Shown: positions 1 through 51,636 of the stretch, in pieces
How positions within the stretch are numbered: position 1 is the stretch's first letter
Layout of the letters: each line of letters opens with the position of its first letter
From: Candidatus Micrarchaeia archaeon
Lineage (GTDB): Archaea; Micrarchaeota; Micrarchaeia; Norongarragalinales; CAINOH01
DNA length: 64,000 nt
Assembly (NCBI GenBank): GCA_041663565.1
Contig: JBAYMJ010000004.1
Span: 582-64,581, forward strand
Direction of reading: 5' to 3'
Made by a program: the position numbers and the translations under genes
Notes under the pieces: model-generated
The model's database searches: none
What the model was told of the DNA's origin: nothing
The model's input: the letters and a program-made list of their open reading frames with translations, nothing else

Positions 1-3000
1 CGGCGGGTTCGCGCTGACGGAATGATAGCTGGCCTGTGAAAGGCCTGTTCCGCTGTAAACCGCGAAAAACAGGCTCTGCCCGCCGTAGAGGAACCACGAA
101 TTCCCGTCGTTGCCGCACCCGTCCGGGCAGCCTATGTGCTTGTCTATTATGCCGCCCCCGGACGCGGACGCGGGCTTGACCCAAGCCTGCACCGTGAGCG
201 CGGGAGTTCCGTCGAGGCCACCCGAATCAGGAACCTCGAGGTAATCCTTCGCCCCGTCAAACCTCATCGCGCTGCCCCACTTGCCGTCAGGAGTCCAGTC
301 GGCGTGCCTCGCCCTGCCCTCGCTGTACAGGCTGGACACTTCATAAGCCGAAAGGCCGCGCGAATAAAGCGCGACCTCGTCTATGGTGCCGTTGAAGAAG
401 TGGCCCGTCGGGTTGTAAGCGCCTATGTACTTGGACCGGTTGTAGTACGGGAAAAGCATCGGGTACCCGGCGTACTGCCTTGCGAAGAACACGCCGTTGC
501 GGTAAACGTCAACAGTGCCCGCGGGGTAGTCGGCCACGACAACTATGTGGACGAGCGTGTTGTCAAGCCCCGTGAAGTAGCCCGGAAAGTAAAGCCCGTA
601 ATAATACGTGCCGTTGCCGTACTGGAAGCACAGGTGGTCGCCGGCCGCGTTGCGGTAGACGAACAGGTAACCCCCGACGCCCTGCGCGTCGTCGCTGAGA
701 AGCGTCTGGTAGCTCGCCGACAGGCTGCTGTTTACCCACATCGACATCGTGAGCGTCGAGTTGCCCGGGCTGCTTATGGCAAACGGGCCCGTTGCAAGGT
801 AGTCGTTCAGCCCGTCGAAGCGCAGGCCGTAGCCGGACTTTCCTGCAACCGAGTCCGCGTGCCTGGCCCTGCCTGAATTGTACCGGGAGAGGACTTCGGA
901 AGCGGAAAGGGATTTGTTGTATATTCCGACTTCATCGATTGTACCGTTGAAATAGGTGTTCCGGTTGTATTGGCCGCCAACACGCAAAGTTGTTGAGACG
1001 ATGATGTTTGCAGTCGCTGATGTTTCGTTTGCCAGTAGTCCGTTAACATAGATGCGAACCTTCGAGTGGTCGTAAGTCCCGGCAATGTGATACCACGTGT
1101 TTTCCGTTGGCGTAATGCTGAACTTTGCGCTACCCGCACCATAAAAGAGGGCAGTCATCGTGTTGTCTGAAAAGTACTCAAGCAAAAATCCCTTGTCGCC
1201 GTCGTCTCCGCCGTACGCCACAACGATTTGGCTGCTGTTTGGAACCTTGTTCCATTTTACCCACGCGCAGACTGAAACGTTATTCTGCCCGTATGGGATT
1301 GCGCCTGAACGTAAGTCCAAGTCAACGTAATCATTGACACCGTCGAACAATATGCCGGCGCCGCTCTTTCCTGCCACCCAATCGGCGTGCTTGGCCTGGC
1401 CGGCATTGTACTGCGCAAGGACTTCGGAAGCCGAAAGCGAACGGCTTGCAACCATTACCTCGTCAATCGAACCGTTGAAATACATCCACTTGCCCCACGA
1501 CGGCGAGTATTCCGCGCCGATGTAGAGGTTGAGCGCGTTCGTCGGCAGCGGGATAGGAAGCGTGCCGTTGGAGGCCTGGATGCCGTCAACGTAACCCACC
1601 ACCGAAAGGCCATCTATTGTCATAGTGTAGTGATGCCAGCCGGACTGGGTGAAAAACAGGGGGTTGTAGGCGCCATTGTATGACGTATAAAGTATCACGC
1701 TGCTGCCACTACCCGCAGTTGCAATGGACCATTGCCCGTTGTCTATCCCATACTTGCTTATTATCCCGTTGCCCCACGACTCTGCCTGCACGCCGGGATT
1801 CATCCACCACGAGACGGACATCTTGCTCGAGAGATTGATGGATGAAGAGGCTGCGACCACCGCATAGTCATTGACACCATCAAACGAGACACCCAGGCCA
1901 GCTTTTCCGGTCGTCCAGTTGCAGTTGGTGACTCCTGACCCGCCGTTCATGTTGTAGCACGTGGCGTTATTTGCGTATACGCCCTTGTCGTAAGCCGTGT
2001 TGCCCGCATTCTCATCCATATGAAGAAGCAATGCGGTATTCCCATAGAGCTTTCCATTATTGAGGTTGGTGCTTCCATCGGCAATTGAAGTCGGATCTGC
2101 CTCTTCCATGTGCAGGAGGAGCGCAGTATTCCCATAGAACCTTCCGTTGTTGTGGTTGACGCTCTCGTCCGTGATGTTCGCCGAATCATCGTCCTCCATG
2201 CGCAAAAGAAGCGCGGTGTTCCCGTAGATTGTTCCGTTGTTGCCGTAGCGCGAGACGTCAACTACCTTGGCTGCGGTGTCACCGATTGCTGCCATGTCGT
2301 CGAAGTTGTACGCAAGCACAAGCGAGTCGTTGTACATCGTGTAGTTCGCGCCGTTCCAGTTGAACACCACCTGCGAAGGCACTGTCGTGTTCTGGACGCT
2401 CGCAGTTATCGTTATGTTGTTTATGAACACCGTGGGAGCGTTCAGCGGGGTCTGGGGGAGGAACAATATGCCGTTGAACGTGACGCTGCGCGAATCGCTC
2501 GACACGTTCGACCAGTTGGAGCCGGAAAGCGACGAGGCGAAAAGCCTGTAACCGTAAGCCCCGCTGTCCACGCCCTGCCGCACCGAAGTGAACAGCCACC
2601 GGTCAGGAGCGTACTTTGCGAGGTTGGAATAATACTGCTGCTGTATCTCGGCTGCGGAAAGCGAACGGTTCCACACGCGCACCTCGTCTATGGAGCCGTT
2701 GAAATGGCGGTTGTAAGCGGTCCCGTCGTACCAGCCGACCATCGTGTGCTCTGGTATCAACACCTTCGAAGCCGCGGGACTGGAATCGCTACCCACCAAC
2801 GAGCCATCCACGTACACGTTGGCGATGATACCGTTGCCTGTCGCGGCTATGTGGTGCCATCCCGGCGCATATGCATTGTTCACCTGTATCAGAGTGCCCC
2901 AGGTGGACCCGTCGGCAGACTCCACGAAGCCCTGCAAGCTGTTGCTGAAAAAGAGACTGTACGGACCGTAACCGTTGCTCAACTTTATCTTAGAAAGCAC

Positions 3001-6000
3001 GTCAGCATTGCCCGAACCAGCATAATTGACCCACGCGGAGACTGTGATGGGCCCGGTGACGTTCAGGCCGGCCGAATCGCCACTGTCAACATAATCATCA
3101 ACTCCGTCAAACCTCAAAGCCGAGCCCCACTTGCCGCTCGGGCCCCAGTCCGCATGCTTTGCTTTCCCGGCGTTGTAGTGCGCAGCGACTTCGGAGACGG
3201 TTAGCGCCTTGGAATAGACTCCAATCTCGTCAAGCGAGCCGTTCAGGTTGTACGCCGCATAGTTCAGCTTGCCTATCAGCATGCTGTTGGACTCCGACAG
3301 GTTGGTGATGTTGCCTGATGAACTCTTATTGGTGCCGACTGGGACGCCGTTGACGTAAAGTTGTGCCCTGTGGCTTGCGAAGGAATAGGCTGCGGCTACG
3401 TGCGTCCACTGGTCAAGCGGGATTATGTCGCCTGTGCTTGCCGGCCAATAGTCCTCATAATTCGTGCCGTCGCCAAGAATAAGTGATGGAACGTACGGGT
3501 GGCTGGAACCGCTGCCGGATATCACAAACGCATATCCGCTAGCCTTGTCCGCCCCTGCGACATTGGTTTTCTTCGCCAGTATTCCAGGGTTGACCGCGGG
3601 GTTGTCGTTGCGCTTGACCCACGCCTCCAGCGTGAAGTCGTTGGTGGACAGGGTGAGACTGTTGCTGTTGGGTATGACCACGTAATCGTCGTTGCCATCA
3701 AAGGAAATACCTGTGCCGGTTTTTCCGGCAACCCAGCTACAGTTGGTAGTTCCGGAGCCGCCGCCCATGTTGTAGCAGGTTCCGTTGTTGCGCCAGACGC
3801 TTTCGTCGTAAGTCGTGTTGCCTGCGTTCTCGTCCATGCGCAAAAGCAGCGCGGTGTTCCCGTAAATCGTGCCGTTGTTGCCGTAGCGCGATACGTCAAC
3901 TACCTTGGATGCCGAGTCGCCGATTGCCGATTGGTCGTCAAAGTTGTACGCAAGCACAAGCGAGTCGTTGTACATCGTGTAGTTGGAAGAGTTCCAGTTG
4001 AAGATGATGGCCGAAGGCTGCGAAACGTTCTGGATGCTCGCATTGATGGTTATGTTGTTGATGTAGACGGTCGAGGCGTTCGCCGGGGTCGGCGAGAGGA
4101 ACCGGATTGCATTGAACGTGACGGACCGCAATTCGCTGGACGAGGTGTTCCCGACGGGATCGCGCGTCCACAGGAAATAATTGTAGGCCCCGCTGTCGAC
4201 GTCCTGAGGTGAATAAGTAAAGAGCCACCTGCCGGGCGCGTACTTTGCGAGGTTGGAATAATACTGCTGCTTGATTTCATCTGCCGAGAGCGAACGGTTC
4301 CAAATCCGAACCTCGTCGATTGAGCCGGTGAGTACTAGCGAACCGGTGAAATACGCGCCGACAGAAGCCTTGTCAATCCCCGAAAGCCCGCCCCATTGCC
4401 CGTCGTTGCTTGCCTGGCCTACGGACAGCGGCTTGCTTGCCCCATCGAGATACAAGGTAGTGTAAGTGCCGTTGTACGTGGCTGCTATCTGGTGCCAGTT
4501 GCCATCGAAGACCTCCGACCGCGAGGAAGTAACGTAGCCAAGCCGAGGCCCGGAGGACTGCCTGCCGAGCATGATAAGCTCTCCGCTCAGTGTGCTGGTG
4601 CAGCCGTCGCCTATGCATATGTCCTGGTGCTGTGTAACATCCCCGGAATTGCCTATGCCGAAAAGGGTCGCGGTGGTTTCGGACGCGGACTTGACCCACA
4701 GCGAGACCGTTGCAGGCGCTGCGAAATTCAATGCCGAAGCGTTGGAAACAAGCACGCGGCCATATGCGCCGTCAAGCCTCAACGCCGAATTCCATTTTCC
4801 GTTCGGGTCCCAGTTTGCGTGCTTTGCCTTCCCGGCATTGAACTGGTTGAGGATTTCAGCCGCGGAAAGCGAGCGGTTGACAACCATGGCCTCATCAATG
4901 GAGCCGTTGAAGTAAGCCCCGTAATTCCAACCCGCACCCAAAGAAACGCGAACATAAGTCGGCGCAGTGCCGCCAGACGAGCCCAGATAGGCTCCGTCAA
5001 CGTAGAACTTGTAAGTGGTGCCTTCGCGCGTTCCCATCAAGTGGTGCCACTGGCCGTCGTTTTGCGGCGCGGTGCCCAATACATTGCCTGTCGGCCCCCC
5101 GCTGTTATCGGTAATGAACGTGCCGTTGGTGTACAAGCAAATCTGGAATCCCGCCCCGCTCGCCTGCGCCAAGTCCATTATCCTCTGCTGATAGGCCTGC
5201 GCCGCGGAGGCTTTCACCCATGCACCGAAAGAGAAGTCGCCAGTTATATTCGCGGAAAACGTGTTTGACAGCACATAGTCGTTGACTCCGTCAAAACTGA
5301 TTCCGCTACCGCTCTTTCCCGCAACCCAATTGCAGTTGGTGACTCCCGAACCTCCGCTCATGTTGTAGCACGTGCCGTTGTTCCTGTAAGCGCTCTCGTC
5401 ATAAGTGGTGTTTCCGGAGTTCTCGTCCATGTGCAAAAGCAGCGCGGTGTTCCCGTAAATCGTGCCGTTGTTCCCATACTTGCTCGTGTCCACCACTTTC
5501 CCCACGGTGTCCCCAATCGCGGAAGCGTCGTCGAAGTTGTACGCAAGCACAAGCGAGTCGTCATAAAGCGTGTAGTTCGTGCCGTTCCACGAGAACGTCG
5601 CGTTCGAAAACGTCTGGCTCGCGACGGTCGTGTTGTCGATGGTCGCGTTGAACATGGCGTTGGCCGAAAACACTGTCGAGCCACTGTCCGGGGTCGGCGG
5701 GGCGAACTGTATGAGGCTCGGGTAGTTTGTCGCATTCGGCGTAGGTGAAGGCGACGGGCTGGCGGTGGGCTGTGAGGACAGCACGTAGACGGACGCGGGA
5801 ATCTCGATGCTCTGGTTGCCGAGCTCGCCCTGCACGGTCACGTTGACTATCCCCGAATAAATGCCGTACGCGGAGTCACCGACAGTAAAATTTACAAAAA
5901 AAGGGACGCTTGAGTGGGCGGAAAGCGCAAAGCTCGAGCTCGGGCAGGAGATTGTCACGTCGCTCGCGGTCCAGTTGCACTGCACGGTCACGTTCGAGCT

Positions 6001-6492: not shown

Positions 6493-6585
6493 ATTTTCCC
6501 CGAACAGTGAACGGAATTAGTGCTTTTTAATGCGCCTTTTAGCTCGTAAAAACGGGAAAAATTCGCTGGAGCGGCTGGCTTTCCG

Positions 6586-9339
6586 CTACTTGCACGCATC
6601 CGCAGTCGGGTGGTCGGCACAGACTATTTCATTCAACTGCCCTATCTGCAACTTCTGCTTTGCATTGTCGGACTTCATCTGTTCTATCTGCGCCTGCTGC
6701 GCCGCCTTGTCCGCCTTGAGCGCGTCGATTTCCTCCTGCTGTTCCTGCATCGCGCTGACAATCACGGGCGCGATGCGCTCGTAGGATATCCCCTTGTAGC
6801 CCTTGTCGTCGGTAGTCACCAATTCAGGAATGATTTTCTCAACGTCCTGCGCGATGAAACCGACTTGAGTTCCATCGGTGAAGCCCATGTTCGGGTACTC
6901 ACTCGTCCGCCACTCGAAATTCACAGGCTTGAGCGCCATTACCTTGTCGAGCGATGCCGAAGGCAGGAGCGAAGTCACGTTCTTCTTCCAGCGCGCATCA
7001 GAACCCGACCACGAACCCGAGGTGACCCAAGCGGTGCCTGCGACGGTCAGAGTATAGCTGGGGGTTGTTGTGCCGATGCCGACGTTGCCGCTCTTCAGGG
7101 TCATCGTATCCAAATAATTCTGCGAACCCAAACGCAACTCCCAAAGGGTGCTGACAAACTGCGAGGTTATTCTTCCAAGTTCATAAGAGCCTTGGTTGAA
7201 GCTGATTTTTGTCCCGGTCCCACTGCCTTCGCTGTTGGGATTGTCCAACCTCAATAACTCTACTACCGCGCCGCTTGACGTCTTGGCCAGGTGCAGCGGC
7301 GCGCCAGGGCTGGCGGTGCCTATGCCCACGCTGCCATTTAGGATTGACGAGCCATCCACGCGCAATGTTGCCGCAGGCACCTGGTAGCGTATGATCACGA
7401 TTCCCGAACCGCCTGCCCCGCCGGAACCGCCGGTGCCGCTTGCGGGCCATCCGCCACCTCCGCCTCCACCGCCACGGTTAGCTATGCCTGCAGTTCCATT
7501 GCTTCCGCCGGTCGCCCCGGCTCCGCCGCCGTCCATCGCAGCCCCGAAAGAGGTATAACCGCCGCCTCCACCGCCGCCTGCATAAGTAAGCGAGACCCCG
7601 GAAATGGAATAAGCCAACCCATAGCCGCCGGACCCGTTGCCTGAAGTACCGCCTGCAGTGCCCGCGCTGCCGGCACCGCCACCTCCACCGCCCACGTATG
7701 GCAATGCGGACCCTCCGCCAGCGCCGCCTGCATTACCCTGGGAACCGGTTCCGCCGGCAGCACTCGTACCGCCGCCTCCGCCCGAACCGCCGTTTCCTCC
7801 GGCATAACTAGATTTTGCGCCATAACCGCCGCCGATTGCGGTGATTGGACCGAACGTGGAATTGTTGCCGGAGCTTCCGCTGTTGCCGCCCTGACCATCC
7901 GCGTTTCCGAGACCGCCCGCACCACCGGCACCCACAGTAACAGTATACGGCGTCGTAGTTATGGCATAAGACGCGTTGTACAGGACTCCGCCACCGCCAC
8001 CACCGCCTATGCCATTACCGTTCCCGTACCCGCCGCCTCCACCACCACCGCCTGCGACCACGAGGTATTGCACGCTGGTGACTCCTACGGGGGGGATGAA
8101 CGTGCTGTTGCCGACTGTCGTGAACTTGTGAACGCGGTAAGCGACGCCGTTCTCAACAATGTCATAGATGCTGTCGCCTCCAAAACCCATCGGCCCTGCA
8201 ACGTGAAGCATCTCGCTTGAGACAGGCGTGCCGATGCCTACGCTGCCGTTGAGGAAGGTCGTTCCGTTCACGTGCAGCATTGCCAGGGGCCTTGTTGTCC
8301 CTATGCCGACGCTGCCTTGAAGAACCGCAGCAGGACCGGATATCGGGTAGCGGATTATCACTACCCCTGAACCGCCGTAACTGTTGCCGGCGCCGTTGCC
8401 GGTGCCAGCACCGCCATTGCCCAACCCGTTGGTGCCTGATGCGCCAACTGTGCCGTCGGAGCGGCCGTAACCTGCGTTACCTCCGGTGGCATAAGTTACC
8501 GGGACGCCGCTGATGCTGCTGGTGACGCCAATCCCGCCAAGACCCATCGTGTTCTGGCCGAACTGGCCTGGCCCGCCGGCACCGCCGCCACCGCCACCGC
8601 GGTCGTTGCCGCCATACCAGCCGCCGTCTCCGCCGTTGTTGCCCTGGCCCGCAATCCCGTACCCTCCGAGAGACTGGCTCATGTCGCTGAAGATTGTTCC
8701 CGCACCGCCGCCCGAGCCGCCGGTATTGGCGCGCCCGCCGCAATGCGTCACTCCGCCACCGCCGCCCATTGCGGTGATGTTTGCAAAAGTCGAATTCCCG
8801 CCGTTGCCTGCTGCGCCATAACCACCCGCGCCTACTGATACGGTATACGCCCCGGACACGCCGGTAAGGACCCCAGTAAGCATACCCCCCGCTCCGCCAC
8901 CGCCACCCGCGGTGTTGACCTGCGCGCCTGCTCCGCCGCCACCGCCTGCGACGACAAGGTATTCGACTTGGGTGACTCCAGTAGGCGCGGTGAACGTGCT
9001 GTTGCCAACGGTCGTGAACTTGTGCACTCGGTAAGTCGTGCCGTTTTCAACAATGTCATAGATGCTGTCCCCGCCGGAACCTCCCGACACGTTGATTGGA
9101 GGAACGACCTGAAGGGTCGCGTTGGGGCTTGCTGTGCCGATGCCTACGCGGCCGGAAGCGGAGTTGACAAAGAGCGAACCATTGCCCGCGGAAAAGTCGC
9201 TGGTTGAGTTGAACTGGCCCTGCACAAGAAGGCTTCCTGCTGACGCGGGCTGGAAAAGCAAGACCGCACAAAGAAGAAGCAAAGACGCGCACGTAGGCAA
9301 GGAAACCAAATACCTACAGCCACTTGCACCAACCACCAT
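6586..9339 (-). CDS. Secreted Gly-rich tail-fibre-like protein with C-terminal peptidase S74 (intramolecular chaperone auto-processing) domain
   Basis: Sec-type signal peptide (…LLFQPASAGS). N-terminal phage tail-fibre-like repeat (GRVGIGTASPNATLQVV). Two copies of the motif IVENGTTYRVHKFTTVGNSTFTAPTGVTQVEYLVVAGGGGG, each followed by a poly-Gly tract and GSGIVIIRYQ. C-terminus SDARWKKNVTSL…LKPVNFEWR…GFIAQDVEKIIPELV…GYKGISYERIAPVIVSAMQEQQEEIDALKA matches the S74 chaperone domain consensus. Confidence 0.8.
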   Translation of the reverse strand: MVVGASGCRYLVSLPTCASLLLLCAVLLFQPASAGSLLVQGQFNSTSDFSAGNGSLFVNSASGRVGIGTASPNATLQVVPPINVSGGSGGDSIYDIVENGTTYRVHKFTTVGNSTFTAPTGVTQVEYLVVAGGGGGAGAQVNTAGGGGGAGGMLTGVLTGVSGAYTVSVGAGGYGAAGNGGNSTFANITAMGGGGGVTHCGGRANTGGSGGGAGTIFSDMSQSLGGYGIAGQGNNGGDGGWYGGNDRGGGGGGAGGPGQFGQNTMGLGGIGVTSSISGVPVTYATGGNAGYGRSDGTVGASGTNGLGNGGAGTGNGAGNSYGGSGVVIIRYPISGPAAVLQGSVGIGTTRPLAMLHVNGTTFLNGSVGIGTPVSSEMLHVAGPMGFGGDSIYDIVENGVAYRVHKFTTVGNSTFIPPVGVTSVQYLVVAGGGGGGGGYGNGNGIGGGGGGGVLYNASYAITTTPYTVTVGAGGAGGLGNADGQGGNSGSSGNNSTFGPITAIGGGYGAKSSYAGGNGGSGGGGGTSAAGGTGSQGNAGGAGGGSALPYVGGGGGGAGSAGTAGGTSGNGSGGYGLAYSISGVSLTYAGGGGGGGYTSFGAAMDGGGAGATGGSNGTAGIANRGGGGGGGGWPASGTGGSGGAGGSGIVIIRYQVPAATLRVDGSSILNGSVGIGTASPGAPLHLAKTSSGAVVELLRLDNPNSEGSGTGTKISFNQGSYELGRITSQFVSTLWELRLGSQNYLDTMTLKSGNVGIGTTTPSYTLTVAGTAWVTSGSWSGSDARWKKNVTSLLPSASLDKVMALKPVNFEWRTSEYPNMGFTDGTQVGFIAQDVEKIIPELVTTDDKGYKGISYERIAPVIVSAMQEQQEEIDALKADKAAQQAQIEQMKSDNAKQKLQIGQLNEIVCADHPTADACK

Positions 9340-9383
9340 ACTGCATTCCCATTAGCTTTCAGCAAACCCGAATAATACTGCGC

Positions 9384-11954
9384 TCATTTGCAGGCATCCG
9401 CAGCAGGGTGGTCAATGCACACAAGCGCCTTCAGCTGTTCTATCTGCAACTGCTGCGCAGCCTTGCCAGCCTTGAGCGCGTCGATTTCCTCCTGCTGTTC
9501 CTGCACCGCCTTCACAATTACCGCGGAGAGCTGCCCATAGGCAATCCCTTTCCTGCCATCCTCGCCGGAAACGACTTCGGGAACCACTTTCTCAAGTTCC
9601 TGCGCAACGAACCCGACCTGGGAAGAGTTGTCGGACTTCATCAGGTAGCTTCTTGGCTGCATCAACATCAAATCCGCCAATCCGTAGTGGATGTCCCTTA
9701 CGTCCTTCTTGTAACTTGCATCGGACGCGCTGGTCCACGCGCCTGCGGAAGAGAGGTAGCCTTCGTTCGCTCCGTTGTAGAAGTACAGGTTTCCCGCATA
9801 ACCCAGGTATATTTGGCGATACAGTCCTTCCGACGAATCCTGTATCTCTAGGCCGGTGTAAGGCAGGCTCTTGTTGTTGACCACGTGAAGTGCCGCGGAC
9901 GGGCTTGACGTGCCGATGCCTACGCTGCCGTTGAAGAACGACTGCCCGTTCACGTGCAAGGAAGCCGCGGGACTGGATGTGCCGATGCCGACGCTGCCTT
10001 GGAAGACCGCTGCCGACCCGACTTGATAGCGCACGATTACGATTCCTGAACCGCCATTGCCGCTAACTTCACTAACGCCCCCGCCGCCCTCGCCGCCGGA
10101 ACCGGTATTATCGAGGCCCGACACGCCATTCCCGCCTGCACTCCCGTTGCCGCCGGCTGCGTATGTAACCGGGGTTCCTGAAATATAATTTACATTTCCC
10201 GCGCCACCGAGACCACCGCTAGGATATCCGACGTATCCTGCATGGCTGCTGCCACCGCCACCGCCACCGGAGTTGTTTCCGGGTGCACCAACAATCGCCG
10301 CACCGCCAGCATAACCTTGACCGGCTATTCCAGAACCGCCGGGGGCGCTGTCACGAGCGCCTCCACCGCCCCCAGAACCACCAGCCTGACCATTCCAATC
10401 AATACTATATTCCCCGCCGCGGCCGCCACCCTTCGCTATAATCGTATCAAAAACGGAATCGCTGCCGCTGGTTGCACCACCACCCCAGCCTGCACCGGAT
10501 CCTCCGGCGCCGACAGTTATTATTTTTGCCCCGTTGACGATGAGTGAACCTGAGAGATATCCGCCTGCACCGCCACCACCACCATATCCCCCGCCTCCGG
10601 CGCCGCCGCCAGCAACTACGAGGTATTCAACTTGCGTGACGCCATCCGGCGGGGTGAACGTGCTGTTGCCAATGGTCGTGAACTTGTGGACCCGGTAAGC
10701 CACGCCGTTCTGTACTATTTCATAGACGCTGTCGCCTCCGGACGCCATTGGACCGGAAACAACGTGAAGCTTCGCCTTCGGACTCGCCATCCCTATGCCG
10801 ACGCTGCCGTTGAAGACTGACGTACCCGCCACATGCAACGTAGCCAAAGGATTCGCTGTGCCTATGCCGACGCTGCCTTGGAAGACTGCCGCGGGTCCTG
10901 ATAGTTGGTAGCGTATGATCACGATGCCGGAACCACCATTGCCGCCAACGCCGCCACCCGCCGGAGCTAAGGCAGTAGACCCGCCTCCTCCGCCACCGGT
11001 ATTTGCATCTGCGTTTGAACCGCTCACTGTGGAACGCCCCGTCCCACCGCCACCGATGCCACCTGGCGTAGTTAGCCCGGCAGTTTCGCCTGCCCCTCCG
11101 CCTCCACCGCCTGCATAGTATGTCGGAGTACCTGAAATCGAGTAGGACAGGCCTATTCCGCCAGCTCCGGTAGTTGCACCAGAAACTCCCGCGCCACCCG
11201 CGCCGCCACCGCCACCGCTCCGAGTGCCACCAGTAGCAGCATCTCCAATTGCGCCATTATTGCCCTGGCCAGCGACGCCCTTACCATAGGAATACAAATT
11301 ATCGTAATTATTGGGACGACCACCAGCGCCGCTGCCGCCATCCTCAATATCGGAACGGCCACCGGCGTTGTAACCCGGAGCACCACCCCCGCCTATTGCC
11401 GTCTGAGAGTTAAAGCTACTGTTGGACCCTTTGCTTCCAAAAGCATCATTTGCATTGAACTCGGCTACGGTTGCAGGCCTGCCGGCGCCACCCGCACCTA
11501 CAACAACAGGATAGCTTGTTCCTGCAGTTACAAAGGAAGAGGAATTGTAAATCAGGCCGCCTGCTCCGCCTCCACCACCATACCACGAAGCACCTCCACC
11601 GCCACCCGCAACAATAAGGCATTCGACAGAAGTAACGCCACTAGGCGGAGTGAATGCGCTGGTGCCGACTGCTGTGAACACGTGGACGCGGTAGGTCGTG
11701 TTGTTGACTACGGTGTCATAGACTCGGTCCCCGCCAAAACCGCTGGAACCGCTAACGACATGAAGAGTCGCATTTGGGCTTGACGTGTTGATGCCTACGC
11801 GGCCGGAAGCGGAGTTGACAAAGAACGAACCATTGCCAACGGAAAAGTCGCTGGTCGAGTTGAGCGCACCCTGCACGAGCAGGCTTCCTGCGGACGCGGG
11901 CTGGCACAGGCAAATGACAAGGAACACGGAAATAATCCAAAGGCCAGATTTCAC
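9384..11954 (-). CDS. Paralogous secreted Gly-rich tail-fibre-like protein with C-terminal peptidase S74 chaperone domain
   Basis: N-terminus is near-identical to the 917-aa neighbour (SAGSLLVQGALNSTSDFSVGNGSFFVNSASGRVGINTSSPNATLHVV). It has the same duplicated YRVH.FT…GVT.VEYLVVAGGG motif and Gly-rich tracts. C-terminus SYKKDVRDI…GFVAQELEKVVPEVV…GIAYGQLSAVIVKAVQEQQEEIDALKA. Confidence 0.8.
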   Translation of the reverse strand: MKSGLWIISVFLVICLCQPASAGSLLVQGALNSTSDFSVGNGSFFVNSASGRVGINTSSPNATLHVVSGSSGFGGDRVYDTVVNNTTYRVHVFTAVGTSAFTPPSGVTSVECLIVAGGGGGASWYGGGGGAGGLIYNSSSFVTAGTSYPVVVGAGGAGRPATVAEFNANDAFGSKGSNSSFNSQTAIGGGGAPGYNAGGRSDIEDGGSGAGGRPNNYDNLYSYGKGVAGQGNNGAIGDAATGGTRSGGGGGAGGAGVSGATTGAGGIGLSYSISGTPTYYAGGGGGGAGETAGLTTPGGIGGGGTGRSTVSGSNADANTGGGGGGSTALAPAGGGVGGNGGSGIVIIRYQLSGPAAVFQGSVGIGTANPLATLHVAGTSVFNGSVGIGMASPKAKLHVVSGPMASGGDSVYEIVQNGVAYRVHKFTTIGNSTFTPPDGVTQVEYLVVAGGGAGGGGYGGGGGAGGYLSGSLIVNGAKIITVGAGGSGAGWGGGATSGSDSVFDTIIAKGGGRGGEYSIDWNGQAGGSGGGGGARDSAPGGSGIAGQGYAGGAAIVGAPGNNSGGGGGGSSHAGYVGYPSGGLGGAGNVNYISGTPVTYAAGGNGSAGGNGVSGLDNTGSGGEGGGGVSEVSGNGGSGIVIVRYQVGSAAVFQGSVGIGTSSPAASLHVNGQSFFNGSVGIGTSSPSAALHVVNNKSLPYTGLEIQDSSEGLYRQIYLGYAGNLYFYNGANEGYLSSAGAWTSASDASYKKDVRDIHYGLADLMLMQPRSYLMKSDNSSQVGFVAQELEKVVPEVVSGEDGRKGIAYGQLSAVIVKAVQEQQEEIDALKAGKAAQQLQIEQLKALVCIDHPAADACK

Positions 11955-12012
11955 AAAAACACCAACTTACCAAAACAACCCAACAGTCAAAACGTCAGAA
12001 AGCCAATACGTA

Positions 12013-13404
12013 CTACGTGAACCCGAGGAATATCCACTTGACAACCGTGTTGCTGTCGCACTCCGAACCGACCATCATGACCTCGACGTCGCTGTACTGG
12101 GCCGCGCGCCTTGCAATCGGATAGCCCGAGCACCAGGCCGAATACTGGAGCTGCGTAGCCATGCTTCCGACTGAAGCAGCGGAATTCGAGATGGCGTACG
12201 TCGAGCCGCCGTATGACCCTTTCAGGATGAGCAGCCCCTGGTCCAGCTGGCCTATTGACCTCCAGCCTCCGCCGCCTACGTCGATGGTCCCGCTTTGTAT
12301 TGCTGCCAAGTTGCTCTTTATGTTGCCTGCCGCCTCGATTTTTCCGCTTGAAAATATGTTGACGGGCTTGTTGCCGTTGCTGTCGGATGTCGAGAAGACA
12401 GTTGAGTCGTCGGATGTGACGGTTATGTACATGTGGTTGCCGGTGTTAAAAGTCGTAGGCGTGAACGTCCCTCCGAGAGTGGGCTCGGTGTTGTCCTGTA
12501 TGTAGTCCACGGCACCGCCCGTGCCGTTGTCAACGTAGAACGCGCCAGTTGGCATGTAACCCACCACCCCGCTTTTCCACGCGACGTAATAATCGGCAGT
12601 AGCCGAGGTCAGCGGGCTGCCTATGGTCAGGTCCGCCTGCGAGAAAGCCTGCGTCACCTGCGCGCCTGCAGCCCCAGCAGGCAGCGTGAAGCGCGCGCCG
12701 AACCTTACTGCCCACGTGTTGCCGCCGGTGTTCTCGACAAACAGCAGCCACCACTTTCCTGTTGTGCTTGCGCTGGGCTTGCGGTAGGTCACCGCGGTGT
12801 ACAGCGTGTTCTTTGCAAGCAGGAACTCGGGCGTGTTCTCAACCCCGAAATAAGCGTTGTTCGCGTCGAACCACGAAGTCCCGTCAGTGTGCGGCAACGG
12901 GTGACCCGTCAGGCCGTAGGACGTGTTGCTCCGGACCTGCAGGCTTGCAGACGGGCTTATGATGCCGATGCCCACGTTGCCGGTGCCGTTCTGTATGGTG
13001 ACCCGGTCTGCAATACCTGACTCCGTAACCCTCAGCGTGCCGTCGTAATCCATCCGCACTATGTGCCATTTTAGCGAACCGGATGCATTGCCGAAGAATA
13101 TTACCGAGTTGTTCCACGCGTCGGGACTCACCCTAATAGACCCGTTCACGTCAAGCCTAACTATGGGGCTCACCGTACCGACACCGACGTTGCCGGAAGT
13201 CGCGTTCACGAAAAACGAAATCGAACCGTTGCCAGCAGAAAAGTCGCTGCTTGAGTTGAGCGCACCCTGCACGAGCAGGCTTCCGGCGGACGTGACCGGG
13301 CAGAGGAGGATTGCGCCAAGGAGAAGGAACGCGAAAAAAGCGGGAGCGTCGGCTGCCAAGACGCCGCGCGCCGCATTACCGCCCAAAACAGTTCTTGCAA
13401 TCAT
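12013..13404 (-). CDS. Secreted protein sharing the fibre-like N-terminal module (SAGSLLVQGALNSSSDFSAGNGS…GNVGVGTVSP) but with a distinct C-terminal region
   Basis: 463-aa ORF. Signal-peptide-like N-terminus, and N-terminal motif paralogous to the two S74 proteins. No S74 domain. Confidence 0.65.
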   Translation of the reverse strand: MIARTVLGGNAARGVLAADAPAFFAFLLLGAILLCPVTSAGSLLVQGALNSSSDFSAGNGSISFFVNATSGNVGVGTVSPIVRLDVNGSIRVSPDAWNNSVIFFGNASGSLKWHIVRMDYDGTLRVTESGIADRVTIQNGTGNVGIGIISPSASLQVRSNTSYGLTGHPLPHTDGTSWFDANNAYFGVENTPEFLLAKNTLYTAVTYRKPSASTTGKWWLLFVENTGGNTWAVRFGARFTLPAGAAGAQVTQAFSQADLTIGSPLTSATADYYVAWKSGVVGYMPTGAFYVDNGTGGAVDYIQDNTEPTLGGTFTPTTFNTGNHMYITVTSDDSTVFSTSDSNGNKPVNIFSSGKIEAAGNIKSNLAAIQSGTIDVGGGGWRSIGQLDQGLLILKGSYGGSTYAISNSAASVGSMATQLQYSAWCSGYPIARRAAQYSDVEVMMVGSECDSNTVVKWIFLGFT

Positions 13405-13435
13405 GATATCCTACCCATCATCCAACAAACCCGAA

Positions 13436-16198
13436 TCAACTGCCGTTGTTCTGCATGAGGCTGCCCACCAGGCACATCTGTCCTGTCTCGCTAATGTATG
13501 ACACGGTAACGTTGTTTGCGTCCTTGACCACGAACAGGTTGTCCGACGCGGTGCACGAAGCGTCGTGGTCGCCGCAGGACGCGTCCTCCAAGCACAGGTT
13601 CCCTGCCTCGGTTATGTACGCGTGGGACACGCCAAGGGAGTCGCGGAACGCCAGCGCGCCCGACGGCGGGGTTGCGCAGCTTGCGCCTGCCGAGCAGGCG
13701 CCTGAAAGTATGACGTCGCCTGCCTGCGTGAACGTCGCCACGCTCGTGCCGGTCGGCGCCTGGAAGAACGCTATGCCTGAAGAGAACACGACCTTGCGCA
13801 GCGCCGAGCGCCCCGACCAAGAATCGTTCTGCGCGAACAGGGAATACCACACGCTGCCTTCAAGCAGGGGGCTGCTATACGAGAACAGCCACTTGTCGGG
13901 CGCGTACTTTGCGAGGTTGGAATAATACTGCTGCTGTATCTCGGCTGCGGAAAGAGAGCGGTTCCAGACGCGCACCTCGTCTATGGAGCCGTTGGAGGAA
14001 TAACCCCTGCCGGAACCGATCCACCAAGGATAGTTGGCCGCATTCGTTACGTTCTGGCCGTACATGGGCTGGGTAAGCCCCAAAGCGAGAGGCATCTGTA
14101 CCCCGTTGACGTATATTGAGAAGTTGTTCGTTGAACCGTCGTGCGTCGCCACGACGTAGGTCCATGCGTTCCTCGGAACTACTCCGACTGCGGTCCTTGA
14201 ATACCTGACCCAGCCATAGCCCCAGTGAGGCACGCCCACAAAGACGTCGCCAAAGCCCACGTCGGTCACCAAAAAGTCGAAGCCATAATTGTTGCCGAAC
14301 GACGGGTCGGGTGCTATTAATATGTGGTTGTAGCTGTTACCCTGTATCTTGACCCACGCCCCGACCGTCCAAGGCACGGCGTCTCCGAAAACCCCACCCA
14401 ACGCGCTGCCGTTGGCCTGCAGGTAGTCGTCAACCCCGTCAAACCTCATTGCACTCTCCCACTTCCCTTCCGGGTCCCAGTCGGCGTGCCTTGCCCTGCC
14501 CGCAGCGTAGGCCGCGGCAACTTCCGCGTCCGAAAGGGCGCGAGAGAAGACTCCAACTTCATCTATTGAACCGTTGAACCCGGCCATGAACGAGTCGCCT
14601 ATCCTGTTGAACGCGCCGATGTTAACCGAGTTGTTGGCAAAACACAACGGCCCGTACGCGGCCCTAGAACCGTTGAGCACGCCGTTCAGGTAGACGCGTA
14701 TCGATTGGCGGTCACGGTCGTACGCAGCCGCCACGAAGGTCCAAGAGTTGGCCGGCACCGCGTTTGTTGCAAACCCGTTGTTGGTGCCCGACGGGTCGCC
14801 TGCGGTGTTGTTGATGAATTGGAACGACACGATGCCTGGCGAGGCGAAGAACAGCATGAACTGCTGGTGCTCCTCCGTTCCCGGGCCATAGCGGTACTTG
14901 CCGACAATCTGTGGGCTTGAAAGCGAGCGAGGGTATATCCAAGCCATCACGGTCACCGCGTTGGAAACGTTAGCAGCTGACGCGTTGCCTGCGACGACGT
15001 AGTCGTCCACCCCGTCGAACTGAACCCCGGTTCCGCTCTTGCCTGTTGCCCACCCGCAGTTCGTGACTCCCGTGCCTCCGTTCATGTTGTAGCAGGTTCC
15101 ATTGTTGCGCCAGACGCTCTCGTCGTACGTCGTGTTGCCGGTGTTCTCATCCATGTGCAGAAGCAGCAACGTGTTGCCGTAAATCGTGCCGTTGTTGCCG
15201 TAGCGCGATATGTCCGTCACCTTGCTCGCGGTGTCTCCGATTGCGGAAACGTCGTCGAAGTTGTACGCAAGCACAAGCGAGTCGTTGTATACCGTGTAAT
15301 TCGTCGAGTTCCAATTGAAGATTACGCCCGAAGGCTGCGAAACGTTCTGGATGCTCGCGTTTATGGTGATGCCGCCAAACGCCATCGATGAATTCGCCGG
15401 CGTCGGCGGCAAGAACTGTATTAGCGAGACTGGCGGGCTTGAGATGACGTTGGATACCACCAGGGTTATCGGCACCTGGAAGCTCTGGTTCCCGGTTGAC
15501 CCTGCGCCGACAAGCGATATGAAAAGCTGGCCGGAGTAGGTGCCCTTTGCGAGCGCGCTGGTGTTCACAAGCAAGTCTAGTTGCTGCGTGCCGTAAGCCA
15601 AAAGCGTGAAGTCCGAAGGGCCAAAAGTTAGGTTGACGCTGCCGTTAGACCACGTCGAGGACACCGTGCCTGCCATCTGGACGATTGACGTGCTTGACAC
15701 GAGGATGGCGTCCGAATATCCGCTGCCGGGGGCCACCACCGCGCTTATGGACGTACGATTGATGCGCGCGACCTTGTCGCCGATTATGACCGAAGTGCCG
15801 TCGTTCTCAACCGGCCAATAGTACGTGCCGGAAGAGTCGGGCAGGCTCCCCTGCAGGGAAAAGGAGAAGGTGCGCACGTAGTCCGTGTCCTTTGCACGCA
15901 GGATTATCGCGTTCTGCGTGATGCGCGAGTTGTCCGGGTCGTAGGAGCGCGGCAGGTCTATCGTCACAATCTTGCGCGCGCCCGCGCCCTGCGAGTGCAC
16001 CTCCCGCGCGGCGTTCGCAAGGTCGGTCACCGCGAGGTTTGCGGAGATTTCGACGTTGCGCGAGCTCAGCGCGTCGCTCCGGCCGACCGTGACCGCGTAG
16101 ATTATCGCAAATACGACTACCGCTGCGGCGAAAAGGAGCAGGAACTCCGTTGAACTCTGCCCCCTGGCCTTGACGCTCCCCATAAAACCCGGTATCAA
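13436..16198 (-). CDS. Large (920 aa) surface protein with class-III (pilin-type) signal peptide and LamG/ConA-like domains
   Basis: N-terminus MIPGFMGSVKARGQSSTEFLLLFAAAVVVFAIIYAV (KARGQ-SSTEF). LamG motifs GVQFDGVDDYVVAGNASA and GSIDEVGVFSRALSDAEVAAAYAAGRARHADW. Shares the YGNTLLLLHMDENTGNTTYDESVWRNNGTCYNM module and an ~88%-identical ~300-nt DNA repeat with the giant gene. True start may be the internal Met (MGSVKARGQ, 16183). Confidence 0.8.
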   Translation of the reverse strand: MIPGFMGSVKARGQSSTEFLLLFAAAVVVFAIIYAVTVGRSDALSSRNVEISANLAVTDLANAAREVHSQGAGARKIVTIDLPRSYDPDNSRITQNAIILRAKDTDYVRTFSFSLQGSLPDSSGTYYWPVENDGTSVIIGDKVARINRTSISAVVAPGSGYSDAILVSSTSIVQMAGTVSSTWSNGSVNLTFGPSDFTLLAYGTQQLDLLVNTSALAKGTYSGQLFISLVGAGSTGNQSFQVPITLVVSNVISSPPVSLIQFLPPTPANSSMAFGGITINASIQNVSQPSGVIFNWNSTNYTVYNDSLVLAYNFDDVSAIGDTASKVTDISRYGNNGTIYGNTLLLLHMDENTGNTTYDESVWRNNGTCYNMNGGTGVTNCGWATGKSGTGVQFDGVDDYVVAGNASAANVSNAVTVMAWIYPRSLSSPQIVGKYRYGPGTEEHQQFMLFFASPGIVSFQFINNTAGDPSGTNNGFATNAVPANSWTFVAAAYDRDRQSIRVYLNGVLNGSRAAYGPLCFANNSVNIGAFNRIGDSFMAGFNGSIDEVGVFSRALSDAEVAAAYAAGRARHADWDPEGKWESAMRFDGVDDYLQANGSALGGVFGDAVPWTVGAWVKIQGNSYNHILIAPDPSFGNNYGFDFLVTDVGFGDVFVGVPHWGYGWVRYSRTAVGVVPRNAWTYVVATHDGSTNNFSIYVNGVQMPLALGLTQPMYGQNVTNAANYPWWIGSGRGYSSNGSIDEVRVWNRSLSAAEIQQQYYSNLAKYAPDKWLFSYSSPLLEGSVWYSLFAQNDSWSGRSALRKVVFSSGIAFFQAPTGTSVATFTQAGDVILSGACSAGASCATPPSGALAFRDSLGVSHAYITEAGNLCLEDASCGDHDASCTASDNLFVVKDANNVTVSYISETGQMCLVGSLMQNNGS
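15082..15362. repeat. Repeat copy 4, inside the 920-aa LamG gene
   Basis: See copy 2. Confidence 0.6.
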
Positions 16199-16718: not shown

Positions 16719-16733
16719 GGGAAAGGAATTCTT

Positions 16734-45997: not shown

Positions 45998-46064
45998 GAA
46001 TTACTACCCGCCAAGAGGCGCGTATGACACGTTTATATCCTTCAGGATTTTTGCTTACTATTGT

Positions 46065-46505: not shown

Positions 46506-46506
46506 G

Positions 46507-47461: not shown

Positions 47462-47475
47462 GATTTGATGACGCT

Positions 47476-50737: not shown

Positions 50738-50748
50738 GGTGACAAGCG

Positions 50749-51633: not shown

Positions 51634-51636
51634 GAC

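What the first reader, a model, noticed from the sequence alone, without database searches (positions are those of the whole stretch)
1..16198. 16-kb co-directional array of five secreted surface proteins: pilin-signal-peptide LamG giants plus tail-fibre-like S74-chaperone proteins
Five minus-strand genes are separated by only 31-93 nt. The array runs in transcription order from the 920-aa class-III-signal-peptide LamG protein, through a 463-aa protein and the 856-aa and 917-aa Gly-rich fibre-like proteins with C-terminal peptidase-S74 intramolecular-chaperone domains, to a >2160-aa class-III-signal-peptide LamG multi-module protein. The array therefore combines archaeal prepilin-type N-termini (RGQ-TTLEF, KARGQ-SSTEF), eukaryote/bacteria-type LamG lectin modules, and phage tail-fibre-type trimerisation/auto-processing chaperone domains, so the fibre proteins may trimerise and auto-cleave like phage tail fibres. 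In a small-genome (possibly episymbiotic DPANN-type) archaeon this looks like a dedicated adhesion or host-attachment surface apparatus rather than a prophage, since no capsid, terminase or other virion genes are nearby. I do not know of this being described as a system.
Basis: partly seen in the sequence, partly recalled or inferred. Interest (0 to 1): 0.8.

Follow-up and report, generated by a model that had tools for sequence, protein, structure and literature searches.

The report
Variable surface-adhesin island of a Micrarchaeon
A tiny symbiotic-type archaeon keeps, at one fixed chromosomal spot, two huge pilin-like lectin proteins with three exported proteins built from phage tail-fibre parts between them; this is probably its fast-evolving kit for sticking to other cells, and it extends known ideas rather than being a new kind of system.

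Summary
Five co-directional minus-strand genes, 31-93 nt apart, encode two LamG-repeat proteins with class-III (prepilin-type) N-termini (920 aa and a giant of at least 3367 aa, cut by the contig end). Between them lie three Sec-signal proteins with a shared N-terminus. Two of these carry 2x Gly_rich_2 plus a Peptidase_S74 chaperone with an intact Ser/Lys dyad.

The source is a Candidatus Micrarchaeia (DPANN) chromosome, and the other 48 kb are housekeeping genes with no virion genes. The Gly_rich_2 model resembles the receptor-binding part of the cyanophage Pam3 tail fibre.

Three related genomes carry the same site. The conserved core is the two LamG genes plus four small pilin-like genes, seen in relatives beyond this contig's end. 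The fibre genes between them vary: 3 here, 8-9 in one relative, none in two. So the region is a hypervariable adhesin island, not a fixed five-gene machine.

LamG expansion linked to type IV pilus loci in Micrarchaeota, LamG-bearing modular pilins in bacteria, and large pilus adhesins in archaea are all published. I found no paper describing the exported phage-fibre-like cassettes. Host attachment, trimerisation, auto-cleavage and pilus display are inferred, not shown.

The parts
13436..16198 (-). 'QSSTEF-type' class-III LamG protein, 920 aa. It has a leader ending ...KARG, then QSSTEFLLL (an exact QxSxExxxL match), a ~245-aa pilin-like carrier module (about 15449-16183), then 2 Laminin_G_3 domains and a Cys-rich tail.
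   Evidence: The N-terminal module belongs to a family of 398 cluster representatives and is always N-terminal. The AF2 model has pLDDT 94, with a helix at 7-65 followed by two beta domains. The ortholog at the same site in relatives is 55% identical.
12013..13404 (-). 463-aa exported fibre-family protein with no S74 domain. It has a signal-like N-terminus ...TSAGS, the shared N-terminal region, two GxVGIG stalk motifs, and a module (aa 141-356) that occurs inside a Gly_rich_2+S74 protein of a relative.
   Evidence: no Pfam hit; 59-67% identity to the N-termini of g856 and g917; 63% identity to L001 12002-12655, inside P0003.
9384..11954 (-). 856-aa fibre-like protein: signal-like N-terminus, shared N-terminal region, two Gly_rich_2 modules (about aa 94-350 and 400-650) separated by GxVGIGT motifs, Peptidase_S74 at aa 744-795, a coiled coil, and a terminal C-x8-C motif.
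   Evidence: NCBI names it 'tail fiber domain-containing protein' (MFA6329305.1).
9723..9725 (-). Codon of Ser744 of the 856-aa protein, the predicted S74 auto-cleavage residue (SDASYK; Lys749 is the dyad partner).
   Evidence: motif position; the S74 match begins at aa 744.
6586..9339 (-). 917-aa fibre-like protein, a paralog of the 856-aa protein (47% identity). It has two Gly_rich_2 modules (about aa 94-340 and 407-653), Peptidase_S74 at aa 780-842, a coiled coil, and the terminal motif CADHPTADAC.
   Evidence: PDB sequence hit to the MYRF ICA domain 7dc3. The AF2 model of aa 56-400 matches the Pam3 fibre and the Bxb1 tail tip by Foldseek. phrog_2295 matches at E=6.6e-86 and several tail-fibre PHROGs also match.
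7000..7002 (-). Codon of Ser780 of the 917-aa protein, the predicted S74 auto-cleavage residue (SDARWK; Lys785 is the dyad partner).
   Evidence: In the MYRF alignment this position falls on ADLRAK, at the start of the S74 match.
1..6492 (-). N-terminal 2164 aa of the 'QTTLEF-type' class-III LamG giant. It has the leader MRRG, then QTTLEFMMI, the same 245-aa carrier module (about 5758-6492), and 8 Laminin_G_3 domains. The gene runs off the window and the contig.
   Evidence: It reaches 2357 aa on the JGI contig (P0154) and at least 3367 aa on the ENA contig. Orthologs of 4444 and 6910 aa occupy the same relative position.
45996..47461 (+). Three small genes with class-III signal-like N-termini (…CKGQVSLEY, MRRGQVAMEF, …HRRGQVLSAE). 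They are candidate pilins of the type IV pilus locus in the same window.
   Evidence: PF04021 scores 26.2 bits against a cut-off of 23.7 for 45996-46505.
49241..52671 (+). Type IV pilus assembly genes: a T2SSE-family ATPase (49241-50737) and two T2SSF/TadC-like membrane proteins (50749-51633, 51637-52671). This is the candidate machinery for the class-III LamG proteins; the link is inferred.

Best explanation
This is the variable part of a chromosomal surface-adhesin island of a Candidatus Micrarchaeia (DPANN) archaeon. It combines two kinds of exported protein.

(1) Two modular, type-IV-pilin-like mega-adhesins (920 aa and at least 3367 aa). A prepilin peptidase would cut a short basic leader after Gly, before Gln+1. 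The long hydrophobic N-terminal helix of a ~245-aa carrier module holds the protein in the membrane or in a pilus. The carrier presents long, sequon-rich chains of LamG (concanavalin-A-like lectin) domains that bind surface glycans of a partner cell. The pilus machinery encoded 30 kb away could display them, probably as tip or low-abundance subunits. In relatives, four small pilin-like genes follow the giant and would assist.

(2) Three Sec-exported fibre proteins made of phage tail-fibre parts. A shared N-terminal region serves as a presumed docking end. GxVGIGT stalk repeats form the shaft. TNF-like/glycine-rich 'knobs' (Gly_rich_2, as in the Pam3 fibre) act as the binding modules. In two of the three, a C-terminal S74 intramolecular chaperone would drive trimerisation and then cut itself off at Ser744 or Ser780.

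The fibre genes are swappable cargo in a hotspot between the two conserved LamG genes. Shown here: gene layout, domains, motifs, cellular context, synteny and its variability, and the structural resemblance. Inferred: export route, leader cleavage, pilus display, trimerisation, auto-cleavage, and a role in attachment to a host.
For: Domains.

Organism and context: the names 'Candidatus Micrarchaeia archaeon'. The rest of the window is housekeeping genes: Kae1, Sua5, RpoE, aIF2-gamma, AspRS, deoxyhypusine synthase, tRNA splicing endonuclease and a his operon, with no virion gene.

Pilin-like nature of the LamG proteins: g920 matches QxSxExxxL exactly with Q at +1, and the giant has Q-T-T-L-E. 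The motif and its EppA-type processing are described in PMC2910488. The N-terminal 245 aa define a family of 398 representatives, always at residue 1. Members are either stand-alone (~240 aa) or fused to LamG, VWA, RTX, MG2, Ig, WD40 or FG-GAP modules. The AF2 model has pLDDT 94 with a helix at 7-65 and then beta domains. A T4P ATPase, two TadC-like genes and small RGQ-type pilins lie in the window. In relatives four conserved small genes with RG|Q or RG|F N-termini follow the giant directly.

Fibres: S74 scores above cut-off, with S-D-x3-K dyads that align to the MYRF ICA domain. An S-[DE]-x3-K motif is present in 10 of 11 S74-bearing relatives, and all 11 have hydrophobic N-termini. The Gly_rich_2 model core has pLDDT above 90; its top PDB matches are the Pam3 fibre (E=4e-5) and the Bxb1 tail tip. 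In Pam3 this domain pair is assigned to receptor recognition (PMC9608196). PHROG tail-fibre families match.

Island behaviour: the same flanks (73-94% aa identity) hold a 55%-identical LamG leader gene and non-orthologous fibre sets. Four locus versions carry 3, 8-9, 0 and 0 fibre genes. Modules are shuffled between genes. One ortholog of the giant contains both LamG and Gly_rich_2. The 5' ends of the three fibre genes are 85-87% identical in DNA, against 47% protein identity overall.
Confidence: 0.6

Rival explanations
1. This is mere co-location. The fibre genes are unrelated cargo that landed in a recombination hotspot. They do something other than host attachment, such as forming biofilm or matrix fibres, a surface coat, or decoys against viruses. 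The LamG giants stay membrane-anchored as a glycan-binding coat and never enter a pilus.
For: Fibre genes are missing from two of the four versions of the site. A g463-like gene and a second fibre mini-array sit elsewhere in the relative's genome. Toxin-antitoxin genes, a TnpB gene and SLFN-type genes also occupy or border the site. The pilin fold was not recovered by fold search. Class-III signal peptides also occur on non-pilus archaeal surface proteins (PMC2910488).
Against: In both genomes that have fibres, they lie in the same orientation directly after the same LamG leader gene with short gaps. LamG and Gly_rich_2 occur in one polypeptide in an ortholog of the giant and in many other proteins. 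Four pilin-like genes follow the giant in relatives.
Confidence: 0.25
2. This is a provirus or virus remnant. The S74/Gly_rich_2 proteins are real virion tail fibres of an integrated archaeal virus, and the LamG proteins are virion structural proteins.
For: The modules match phage families: phrog_2295 at E=1e-91, tail-fibre PHROGs, and phrog_8510 'virion structural protein' for LamG. The structures match the Pam3 fibre and the Bxb1 tail tip. NCBI uses the name 'tail fiber domain-containing protein'.
Against: No capsid, portal, terminase, integrase or tail gene occurs in the 48 kb on one side. In the complete relative genome both sides are housekeeping genes (GHMP kinase on one side, PheRS on the other). 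All three fibre proteins and their relatives begin with hydrophobic signal-like N-termini, which are not expected for cytoplasmically assembled virions. The LamG proteins carry prepilin-type leaders. Only one weak match was found in IMG/VR.
Confidence: 0.05
3. The fibre proteins are released as free trimeric effectors (bacteriocin-like or lectin-like agents acting on other cells) rather than cell-attached fibres.
For: After signal-peptide removal and S74 cleavage no membrane anchor is evident.
Against: No toxin or enzyme domain was found in any of the three. The strongly conserved N-terminal region, 85-87% identical in DNA among paralogs, looks like a common docking end, as in phage fibres.
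Confidence: 0.07

Closest known systems
Modular type IV pilins of bacteria (Streptococcus sanguinis PilB and PilC; PF13385-bearing pilins, including ones from Candidate Phyla Radiation bacteria) - PMC8179133, PMC9934059
   Same: [quoted passage not shown] ConA-like/LamG lectin is among the most frequent grafts, and an S74 graft is also listed. A role as a pilus-presented adhesin is proposed.
   Different: Here the carrier is an archaeal QxSxExxxL/DUF361-type module of ~245 aa (helix plus two beta domains), not the bacterial IPR012902 type. The grafts are chains of 2 to more than 8 LamG domains, giving proteins of 920 to about 7000 aa. No structural or functional test has been done.
LamG-protein expansion in the Micrarchaeon 'Ca. 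Mancarchaeum acidiphilum' Mia14 and other DPANN archaea - PMC5498576 (also Undinarchaeota, PMC7414124)
   Same: The same phylum-level group. LamG-like jelly-roll proteins are expanded there, some linked to type IV pilus loci and located on genomic islands, and a host-interaction role is proposed.
   Different: Those papers do not describe, in the passages I read, the class-III carrier module family, the two-gene LamG bracket with a variable cassette site, or the Gly_rich_2/S74 fibre genes.
Large DUF2341 proteins predicted as pilus-tip adhesins in archaeal T4P loci of the Methanococci/Thermococci type - PMC4858521
   Same: Large secreted ConA-like-fold proteins encoded with archaeal pilins and proposed as PilY1-like adhesins. 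In the relative genome some fibre genes carry DUF2341.
   Different: The window's LamG genes are 30 kb from the ATPase and TadC genes. They themselves carry the class-III leader, and they are far larger.
Phage tail fibres and spikes with a C-terminal S74 intramolecular chaperone (K1F endosialidase, T5 L-shaped fibre) and glycine-rich receptor-binding tips (Pam3 gp24, S16 gp38) - PMC9608196
   Same: The S74 domain with a Ser/Lys dyad, stalk repeats, a TNF-like plus glycine-rich lattice domain, a conserved N-terminal end with mosaic distal parts, and paralog cassettes.
   Different: These genes are encoded in a cellular chromosome with no virion genes. The proteins carry signal-like N-termini. 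The Gly_rich_2 knobs are internal and duplicated rather than terminal. In Pam3 the chaperone is a separate protein.
MYRF (eukaryotic membrane-bound transcription factor with an ICA domain), PDB 7dc3
   Same: It is the only solved structure detectable by sequence (E=3.6e-5). It shares the GxVGI stalk motif and the S74/ICA core, which shows that the ICA domain works outside viruses.
   Different: Its biology is unrelated, and only about 100 residues are shared.

Membership tests
Archaeal class-III signal peptide / type IV pilin-like proteins (DUF361, EppA-type) | A short charged leader ending in Gly/Ala, Gln at +1, and the QxSxExxxL motif | tested here: met
   g920 reads RG|QSSTEFLLL, an exact match. 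The giant reads RG|QTTLEFMMI, with conservative S>T and L>I changes. The same pattern holds across the family alignment. The motif is defined in PMC2910488.
Archaeal class-III signal peptide / type IV pilin-like proteins (DUF361, EppA-type) | Pfam PF04021 Class_IIIsignal above its gathering score | tested here: not met
   The giant scores 18.1 bits against a cut-off of 23.7, and g920 has no hit. Only 5 of 80 family members hit at E<1e-4. The model is only 27 positions long, so this is a weak test.
Archaeal class-III signal peptide / type IV pilin-like proteins (DUF361, EppA-type) | A long hydrophobic N-terminal alpha-helix followed by a beta-rich globular domain (pilin 'lollipop'), resembling solved pilins | tested here: inconclusive
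Archaeal class-III signal peptide / type IV pilin-like proteins (DUF361, EppA-type) | Encoded with, or dependent on, a prepilin peptidase and a T4P ATPase/TadC | tested here: inconclusive
   The ATPase, two TadC-like genes and small pilins are in the window, but 30 kb away. No peptidase was found in the window. In relatives four small pilin-like genes follow the giant.
Archaeal class-III signal peptide / type IV pilin-like proteins (DUF361, EppA-type) | Leader cleavage and incorporation into a filament | not testable with these tools
   This needs proteomics or cryo-EM.
Peptidase S74 / intramolecular chaperone auto-processing (ICA) fibre proteins | PF13884 above its gathering score, at the C-terminus | tested here: met
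   Scores of 58.3 and 40.6 bits against a cut-off of 22. The MYRF ICA domain is hit in the PDB.
Peptidase S74 / intramolecular chaperone auto-processing (ICA) fibre proteins | A catalytic Ser with Lys five residues downstream, at the start of the domain | tested here: met
   S780/K785 (SDARWK) and S744/K749 (SDASYK). An S-[DE]-x3-K motif is present in 10 of 11 S74-bearing relatives. That these residues are the catalytic ones rests on my knowledge of endosialidase and MYRF.
Peptidase S74 / intramolecular chaperone auto-processing (ICA) fibre proteins | Trimeric assembly and self-cleavage | not tested
   No multimer prediction tool was available. Mass spectrometry or a mutant is needed.
Gly_rich_2 / TNF-like plus glycine-rich lattice receptor-binding domain (Pam3 gp24-like) | PF21722 match and fold similarity to a solved fibre tip | tested here: met
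   E=3e-42 and 4.5e-41. Foldseek gives 7ypx_A at E=4e-5 with probability 1.0 and TM 0.36/0.48, and 9d93 at E=8e-5; the ALK glycine-rich domain appears only weakly.
Gly_rich_2 / TNF-like plus glycine-rich lattice receptor-binding domain (Pam3 gp24-like) | Binds a cell-surface receptor | not testable with these tools
   This is assigned by analogy to Pam3 and S16 gp38 (PMC9608196).
Provirus / virion tail fibre | Neighbouring capsid, portal, terminase, tail or integrase genes | tested here: not met
   Pfam scans of about 50 ORFs across 16-64 kb found only cellular genes plus one TnpB. In the complete relative both flanks are cellular. The sequence beyond the contig end is unseen.
LamG / concanavalin-A-like lectin repeat proteins | PF13385 above its gathering score, in repeats | tested here: met
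   2 stretches in g920 and 8 in the visible part of the giant.

The most novel reading that the evidence does not exclude
Micrarchaeia, and perhaps other ultra-small symbionts, may have domesticated phage receptor-binding fibre modules as Sec-exported cellular fibres. The modules are a TNF-like/glycine-rich knob, a stalk repeat and an S74 chaperone. The genes are kept as exchangeable cassettes in a recombination hotspot bracketed by two pilin-anchored LamG mega-adhesins. The fibres would dock through their conserved N-terminal end onto that pilus/LamG scaffold. The symbiont's host range would then be set and changed the way a phage's is, by swapping fibre cassettes.
Probability: 0.25. Interest if true: 0.75.

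Novelty: new variant of a known kind. Interest (0 to 1): 0.5.

Why it matters
How DPANN archaea recognise and hold on to their hosts is largely unknown. This locus gives concrete, testable candidates. One is a family of about 400 archaeal pilin-like carrier modules that present varied adhesion domains. The other is a fixed chromosomal site where phage-fibre-like genes come and go between close relatives. If these proteins mediate attachment, the site would be a genomic marker of host specificity in Micrarchaeia. It would also be an example of cells and viruses sharing one receptor-binding toolkit. If not, it is one more variable surface-protein island.

Tried and rejected
1. Exact look-ups of the 917-aa and 898-aa products found nothing. 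The 463-aa product located the contig.

2. The word-indexed homolog search with the g920 N-terminal module found nothing. The exhaustive HMMER search found 398 relatives, so the first result was a sensitivity limit, not absence.

With a 6-sequence alignment it gave one Micrarchaeota locus with a LamG ORF next to a stand-alone carrier-module gene and no fibres. This says little about how widespread the island is.

4. An apparent disruption of the 856-aa gene in the ENA assembly (called there as 76 aa plus 246 aa) is a gene-calling artefact. The DNA is identical across the array and the frame is intact.

5. Both fold searches for a pilin fold were swamped by the Ig-like second domain.

6. NCBIfam gave only a weak LamG-level match to haloarchaeal TafC (48 bits against a cut-off of 410), which I rejected as membership.

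8. The provirus idea is rejected on gene context (see the rival explanations).

9. A diversity-generating retroelement link was considered because relatives carry FGE-sulfatase-type C-termini. None of the window ORFs I scanned matched a reverse transcriptase, none of the five proteins has that domain, and I did not pursue it.

10. No clear archaeal TATA-like element was found in the short gaps apart from one before the giant, so operon structure is unresolved.
Full report
**Observation**

A fifth frame stays open from 6492 to base 1, giving 2164 aa from the first Met. The gaps are 31, 58, 44 and 93 nt.

- The 920-aa protein has two Laminin_G_3 stretches.
- The visible part of the giant has eight, plus a sub-threshold Class_IIIsignal hit.
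- The 856- and 917-aa proteins each have two Gly_rich_2 (PF21722) stretches and a C-terminal Peptidase_S74 above its cut-off.
- The 463-aa protein has no Pfam match.

**Source and context**

Public copies of these proteins are labelled 'Candidatus Micrarchaeia archaeon'. A longer assembly of the same contig is 99.99% identical over 21.4 kb. On that assembly the giant reaches at least 3367 aa and is still cut by the contig end.

The other 48 kb of the window are ordinary archaeal chromosome:
- a GHMP kinase, a KaiC-like ATPase, an FAD reductase, PGM/PMM, AMMECR1, Memo and a radical SAM protein;
- Sua5, Kae1, RpoE, adenylate kinase, aIF2-gamma, AspRS, deoxyhypusine synthase and tRNA splicing endonuclease;
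- a histidine operon and one TnpB.

There is no capsid, portal, terminase or tail gene. The window also holds a type IV pilus locus. It has three small genes with RGQ/KGQ-type class-III N-termini (45996-47461), a T2SSE ATPase and two T2SSF/TadC-like genes (49241-52671).

**The LamG proteins**

The two LamG proteins are paralogs, 38% identical over about 870 aa. Both begin with a short basic leader ending in Arg-Gly, followed by Gln. g920 reads QSSTEFLLL, an exact QxSxExxxL match. The giant reads QTTLEFMMI. This motif, with Q at +1, marks the DUF361 class of archaeal class-III signal peptides, which the EppA-type prepilin peptidase processes (PMC2910488).

An exhaustive profile search with the first 245 residues found 398 cluster representatives. 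The match is always at the N-terminus, and protein lengths run from about 240 aa (stand-alone) to 7018 aa. Among 80 members scanned, the C-terminal additions include LamG, VWA, RTX, MG2, Ig-like, WD40 and FG-GAP domains.

The AF2 model of the module is confident (pLDDT 94). It shows a helix from residue 7 to 65, a small beta domain and an Ig-like domain. This is the layout of a 'modular pilin', in which a carrier module presents a grafted functional module. That concept is established for bacteria, where PF13385 is among the commonest grafts (PMC8179133).

Three caveats apply. Pfam PF04021 is below its cut-off here. Fold searches returned only PapD/ASH-like Ig domains and no solved pilin. No prepilin peptidase gene lies in the window.

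**The fibre-like proteins**

g856 and g917 are paralogs at 47% identity, and g463 shares their first ~100 residues at 59-67% identity. All three start with a hydrophobic segment ending in (A/T)SAGS, which looks like a Sec signal peptide. Each of g856 and g917 contains five copies of the motif GxVGIGTxxPxxxLxV.

In the PDB sequence search the last copy of that motif, plus the S74 core, aligns to the MYRF intramolecular-chaperone domain (7dc3, E=3.6e-5). The S74 match starts exactly at SDARWK (S780/K785) in g917 and SDASYK (S744/K749) in g856. From my knowledge of endosialidase and MYRF, this is the Ser/Lys dyad arrangement. Ten of eleven S74-bearing relatives keep an S-[DE]-x3-K motif, and most of them end in a two-Cys motif (C-x8-C or C-x9-C) near the C-terminus.

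I modelled residues 56-400 of g917 with a 26-sequence alignment. The Gly_rich_2 core is confident, with pLDDT mostly above 90. Its best PDB matches are the cyanophage Pam3 fibre (7ypx, E=4e-5; 7yfw) and the mycobacteriophage Bxb1 tail tip (9d93). The ALK glycine-rich domain appears only far down the list. In Pam3 gp24, the TNF-like domain and the glycine-rich lattice form the distal part of the fibre and are assigned to receptor recognition (PMC9608196). PHROGs agree: phrog_2295 matches at E=1e-91 and 1e-86, and several tail-fibre families match the C-termini.

So these proteins are built from phage tail-fibre modules. They carry export signals, though, and sit in a cellular chromosome.

**Comparative genomics**

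This is the main new result. The same chromosomal site exists in related genomes, with flanking proteins 73-94% identical to those of the window. I saw four versions:
- **A, this window:** a QSSTEF-type LamG gene (920 aa), then three fibre genes, then the QTTLEF-type giant.
- **B, a ~1.2 Mb genome:** a QSSTEF-type LamG gene (891 aa, 55% identical to g920), then eight or nine Gly_rich_2 genes ending in S74 or FGE-sulfatase domains, some with DUF2341. A toxin-antitoxin pair follows, then a QTTLEF-type giant of 4444 aa, four small genes and then housekeeping genes.
- **C:** a QSSTEF-type LamG gene of 7018 aa, then SLFN, toxin-antitoxin and DUF3800 genes, then a QTTLEF-type giant of more than 3220 aa. 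There are no fibre genes.
- **D:** the end of a LamG gene, an 85-nt gap, a QTTLEF-type giant of 6910 aa that contains both LamG and Gly_rich_2 domains, and then the same four small genes.

The four small genes are 63-82% identical between B and D, and each starts with an RG|Q or RG|F leader plus a hydrophobic stretch, as minor pilins do. They would lie beyond the end of this contig.

The fibre genes of A and B are not one-to-one orthologs. Residues 141-356 of g463 occur, at 63% identity, inside a Gly_rich_2+S74 protein of B. The nearest whole-gene relative of g463 in B lies elsewhere in that genome. Within the window, the 5' ends of the three fibre genes are 85-87% identical in DNA over 85-156 nt, and the 3' ends of g856 and g917 are 79-91% identical. 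The interiors have diverged.

**Interpretation**

The conserved unit is the pair of class-III LamG genes, plus the four pilin-like genes seen in relatives. The fibre genes are variable cargo in a hotspot between the two LamG genes. The region is best described as a hypervariable surface-adhesin island, not a fixed five-gene apparatus.

The most likely mechanism, with about 0.6 confidence, has two parts:
- The LamG proteins are pilin-like mega-adhesins, held by their N-terminal helix in the membrane or in a type IV pilus, and they present lectin-domain chains.
- The fibre proteins are exported, trimerise with help from the S74 chaperone, shed it by self-cleavage, and expose two Gly_rich_2 binding knobs per chain. 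The shared N-terminal region serves as a common docking end.

Export, cleavage, trimerisation, pilus display and attachment to a host are all inferences.

The provirus alternative is unlikely (about 0.05) given the gene context and the export signals. Only one weak hit was found in IMG/VR. A real alternative (about 0.25) is that the two protein classes are merely co-located and do not work together.

**Comparison with what is known**

Three relevant ideas are already published:
- Golyshina et al. 2017 reported expanded LamG-like proteins in the Micrarchaeon Mia14. Some are linked to type IV pilus loci and lie on a genomic island, and a host-interaction role was proposed (PMC5498576).
- Makarova et al. 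2016 predicted large DUF2341 proteins as pilus adhesins in archaeal T4P loci (PMC4858521).
- Raynaud et al. 2021 established modular pilins, including PF13385 and S74 grafts (PMC8179133).

NCBI already names the 856-aa protein a 'tail fiber domain-containing protein'. More than 3600 Gly_rich_2 relatives exist, including some from Patescibacteria.

In the literature I could search I did not find three things described:
- the archaeal carrier-module family as such;
- the bracketed cassette site;
- exported Gly_rich_2/S74 fibres in DPANN cells.

I therefore rate the finding as a new variant of a known kind, of moderate interest.

Noticed in passing
window 45996-52671 (+): A complete-looking archaeal type IV pilus locus: three small genes with class-III N-termini, two unannotated ORFs, an HTH-like gene, a T2SSE ATPase and two T2SSF/TadC-like genes. 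No prepilin peptidase gene is nearby.
   Followed up: partly
L013 23436-25625; L011 21091-23312: Four conserved small genes (about 130, 180, 135 and 290 aa; 63-82% identical between two genomes) with RG|Q or RG|F leaders directly follow the QTTLEF-type LamG giant. They are probably minor pilins and should lie just beyond this contig's end.
   Followed up: partly
L011 355-21087 (P0147, 6910 aa): An ortholog of the giant combines the class-III carrier module, many LamG domains and a Gly_rich_2 domain in one polypeptide.
   Followed up: no
L009 10001-23757; L001/L013: In the relative genome most Gly_rich_2 genes at this site end in an FGE-sulfatase (PF03781) domain instead of S74, and two also carry DUF2341. 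From memory, FGE-sulfatase-type C-type-lectin folds are typical targets of diversity-generating retroelements. I did not search for a reverse transcriptase.
   Followed up: no
window 9103-9259, 11754-11910, 13222-13306; 6673-6812 vs 9429-9568; 2590-2701 vs 13883-13994: Short DNA stretches at the 5' ends of the three fibre genes (85-87% identity), at the 3' ends of g856 and g917 (79-91%), and one 112-nt stretch shared by the two LamG genes (94%) are far more alike than the rest of the genes. This suggests gene conversion or recombination anchors.
   Followed up: partly
window 6586-6630 and 9384-9430 (C-termini of g917 and g856): The S74 proteins and most of their relatives end in a conserved two-Cys motif (CADHPxADAC or CAKDxxYxWC) of unknown role.
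   Followed up: no
window 21005-22174 (+) and 16419-17057 (+): A TnpB (IS605 OrfB/Cas12f-like) gene and a small pair that includes a MazE-like antitoxin gene border the array. Neither is at the same site in the 1.2 Mb relative.
   Followed up: partly
window 35395-35534 (-) and 44831-45997 (-): A 140-nt tRNA match, presumably intron-containing, is found by Rfam but missed by ARAGORN. A tRNA splicing endonuclease gene with duplicated N-terminal domains lies 9 kb away.
   Followed up: no
window 56282-57565 (-) and 61534-63447 (-): The histidine operon has fused genes: His_biosynth+PRA-CH+PRA-PH (427 aa) and HisG+HisD (637 aa). A his operon is notable in a supposedly reduced DPANN genome.
   Followed up: no
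L004 12022-14021 (= window 9384-11383): The public gene calls split the intact 856-aa gene into 76-aa and 246-aa fragments although the DNA is identical across the array. Glycine-rich genes of this family are probably under-called in databases.
   Followed up: yes
L010 1-14179: A second mini-array of three Gly_rich_2 genes (one with S74) in the relative genome sits about 6.6 kb from another T2SSE ATPase gene and follows three unannotated genes of 380-617 aa.
   Followed up: no
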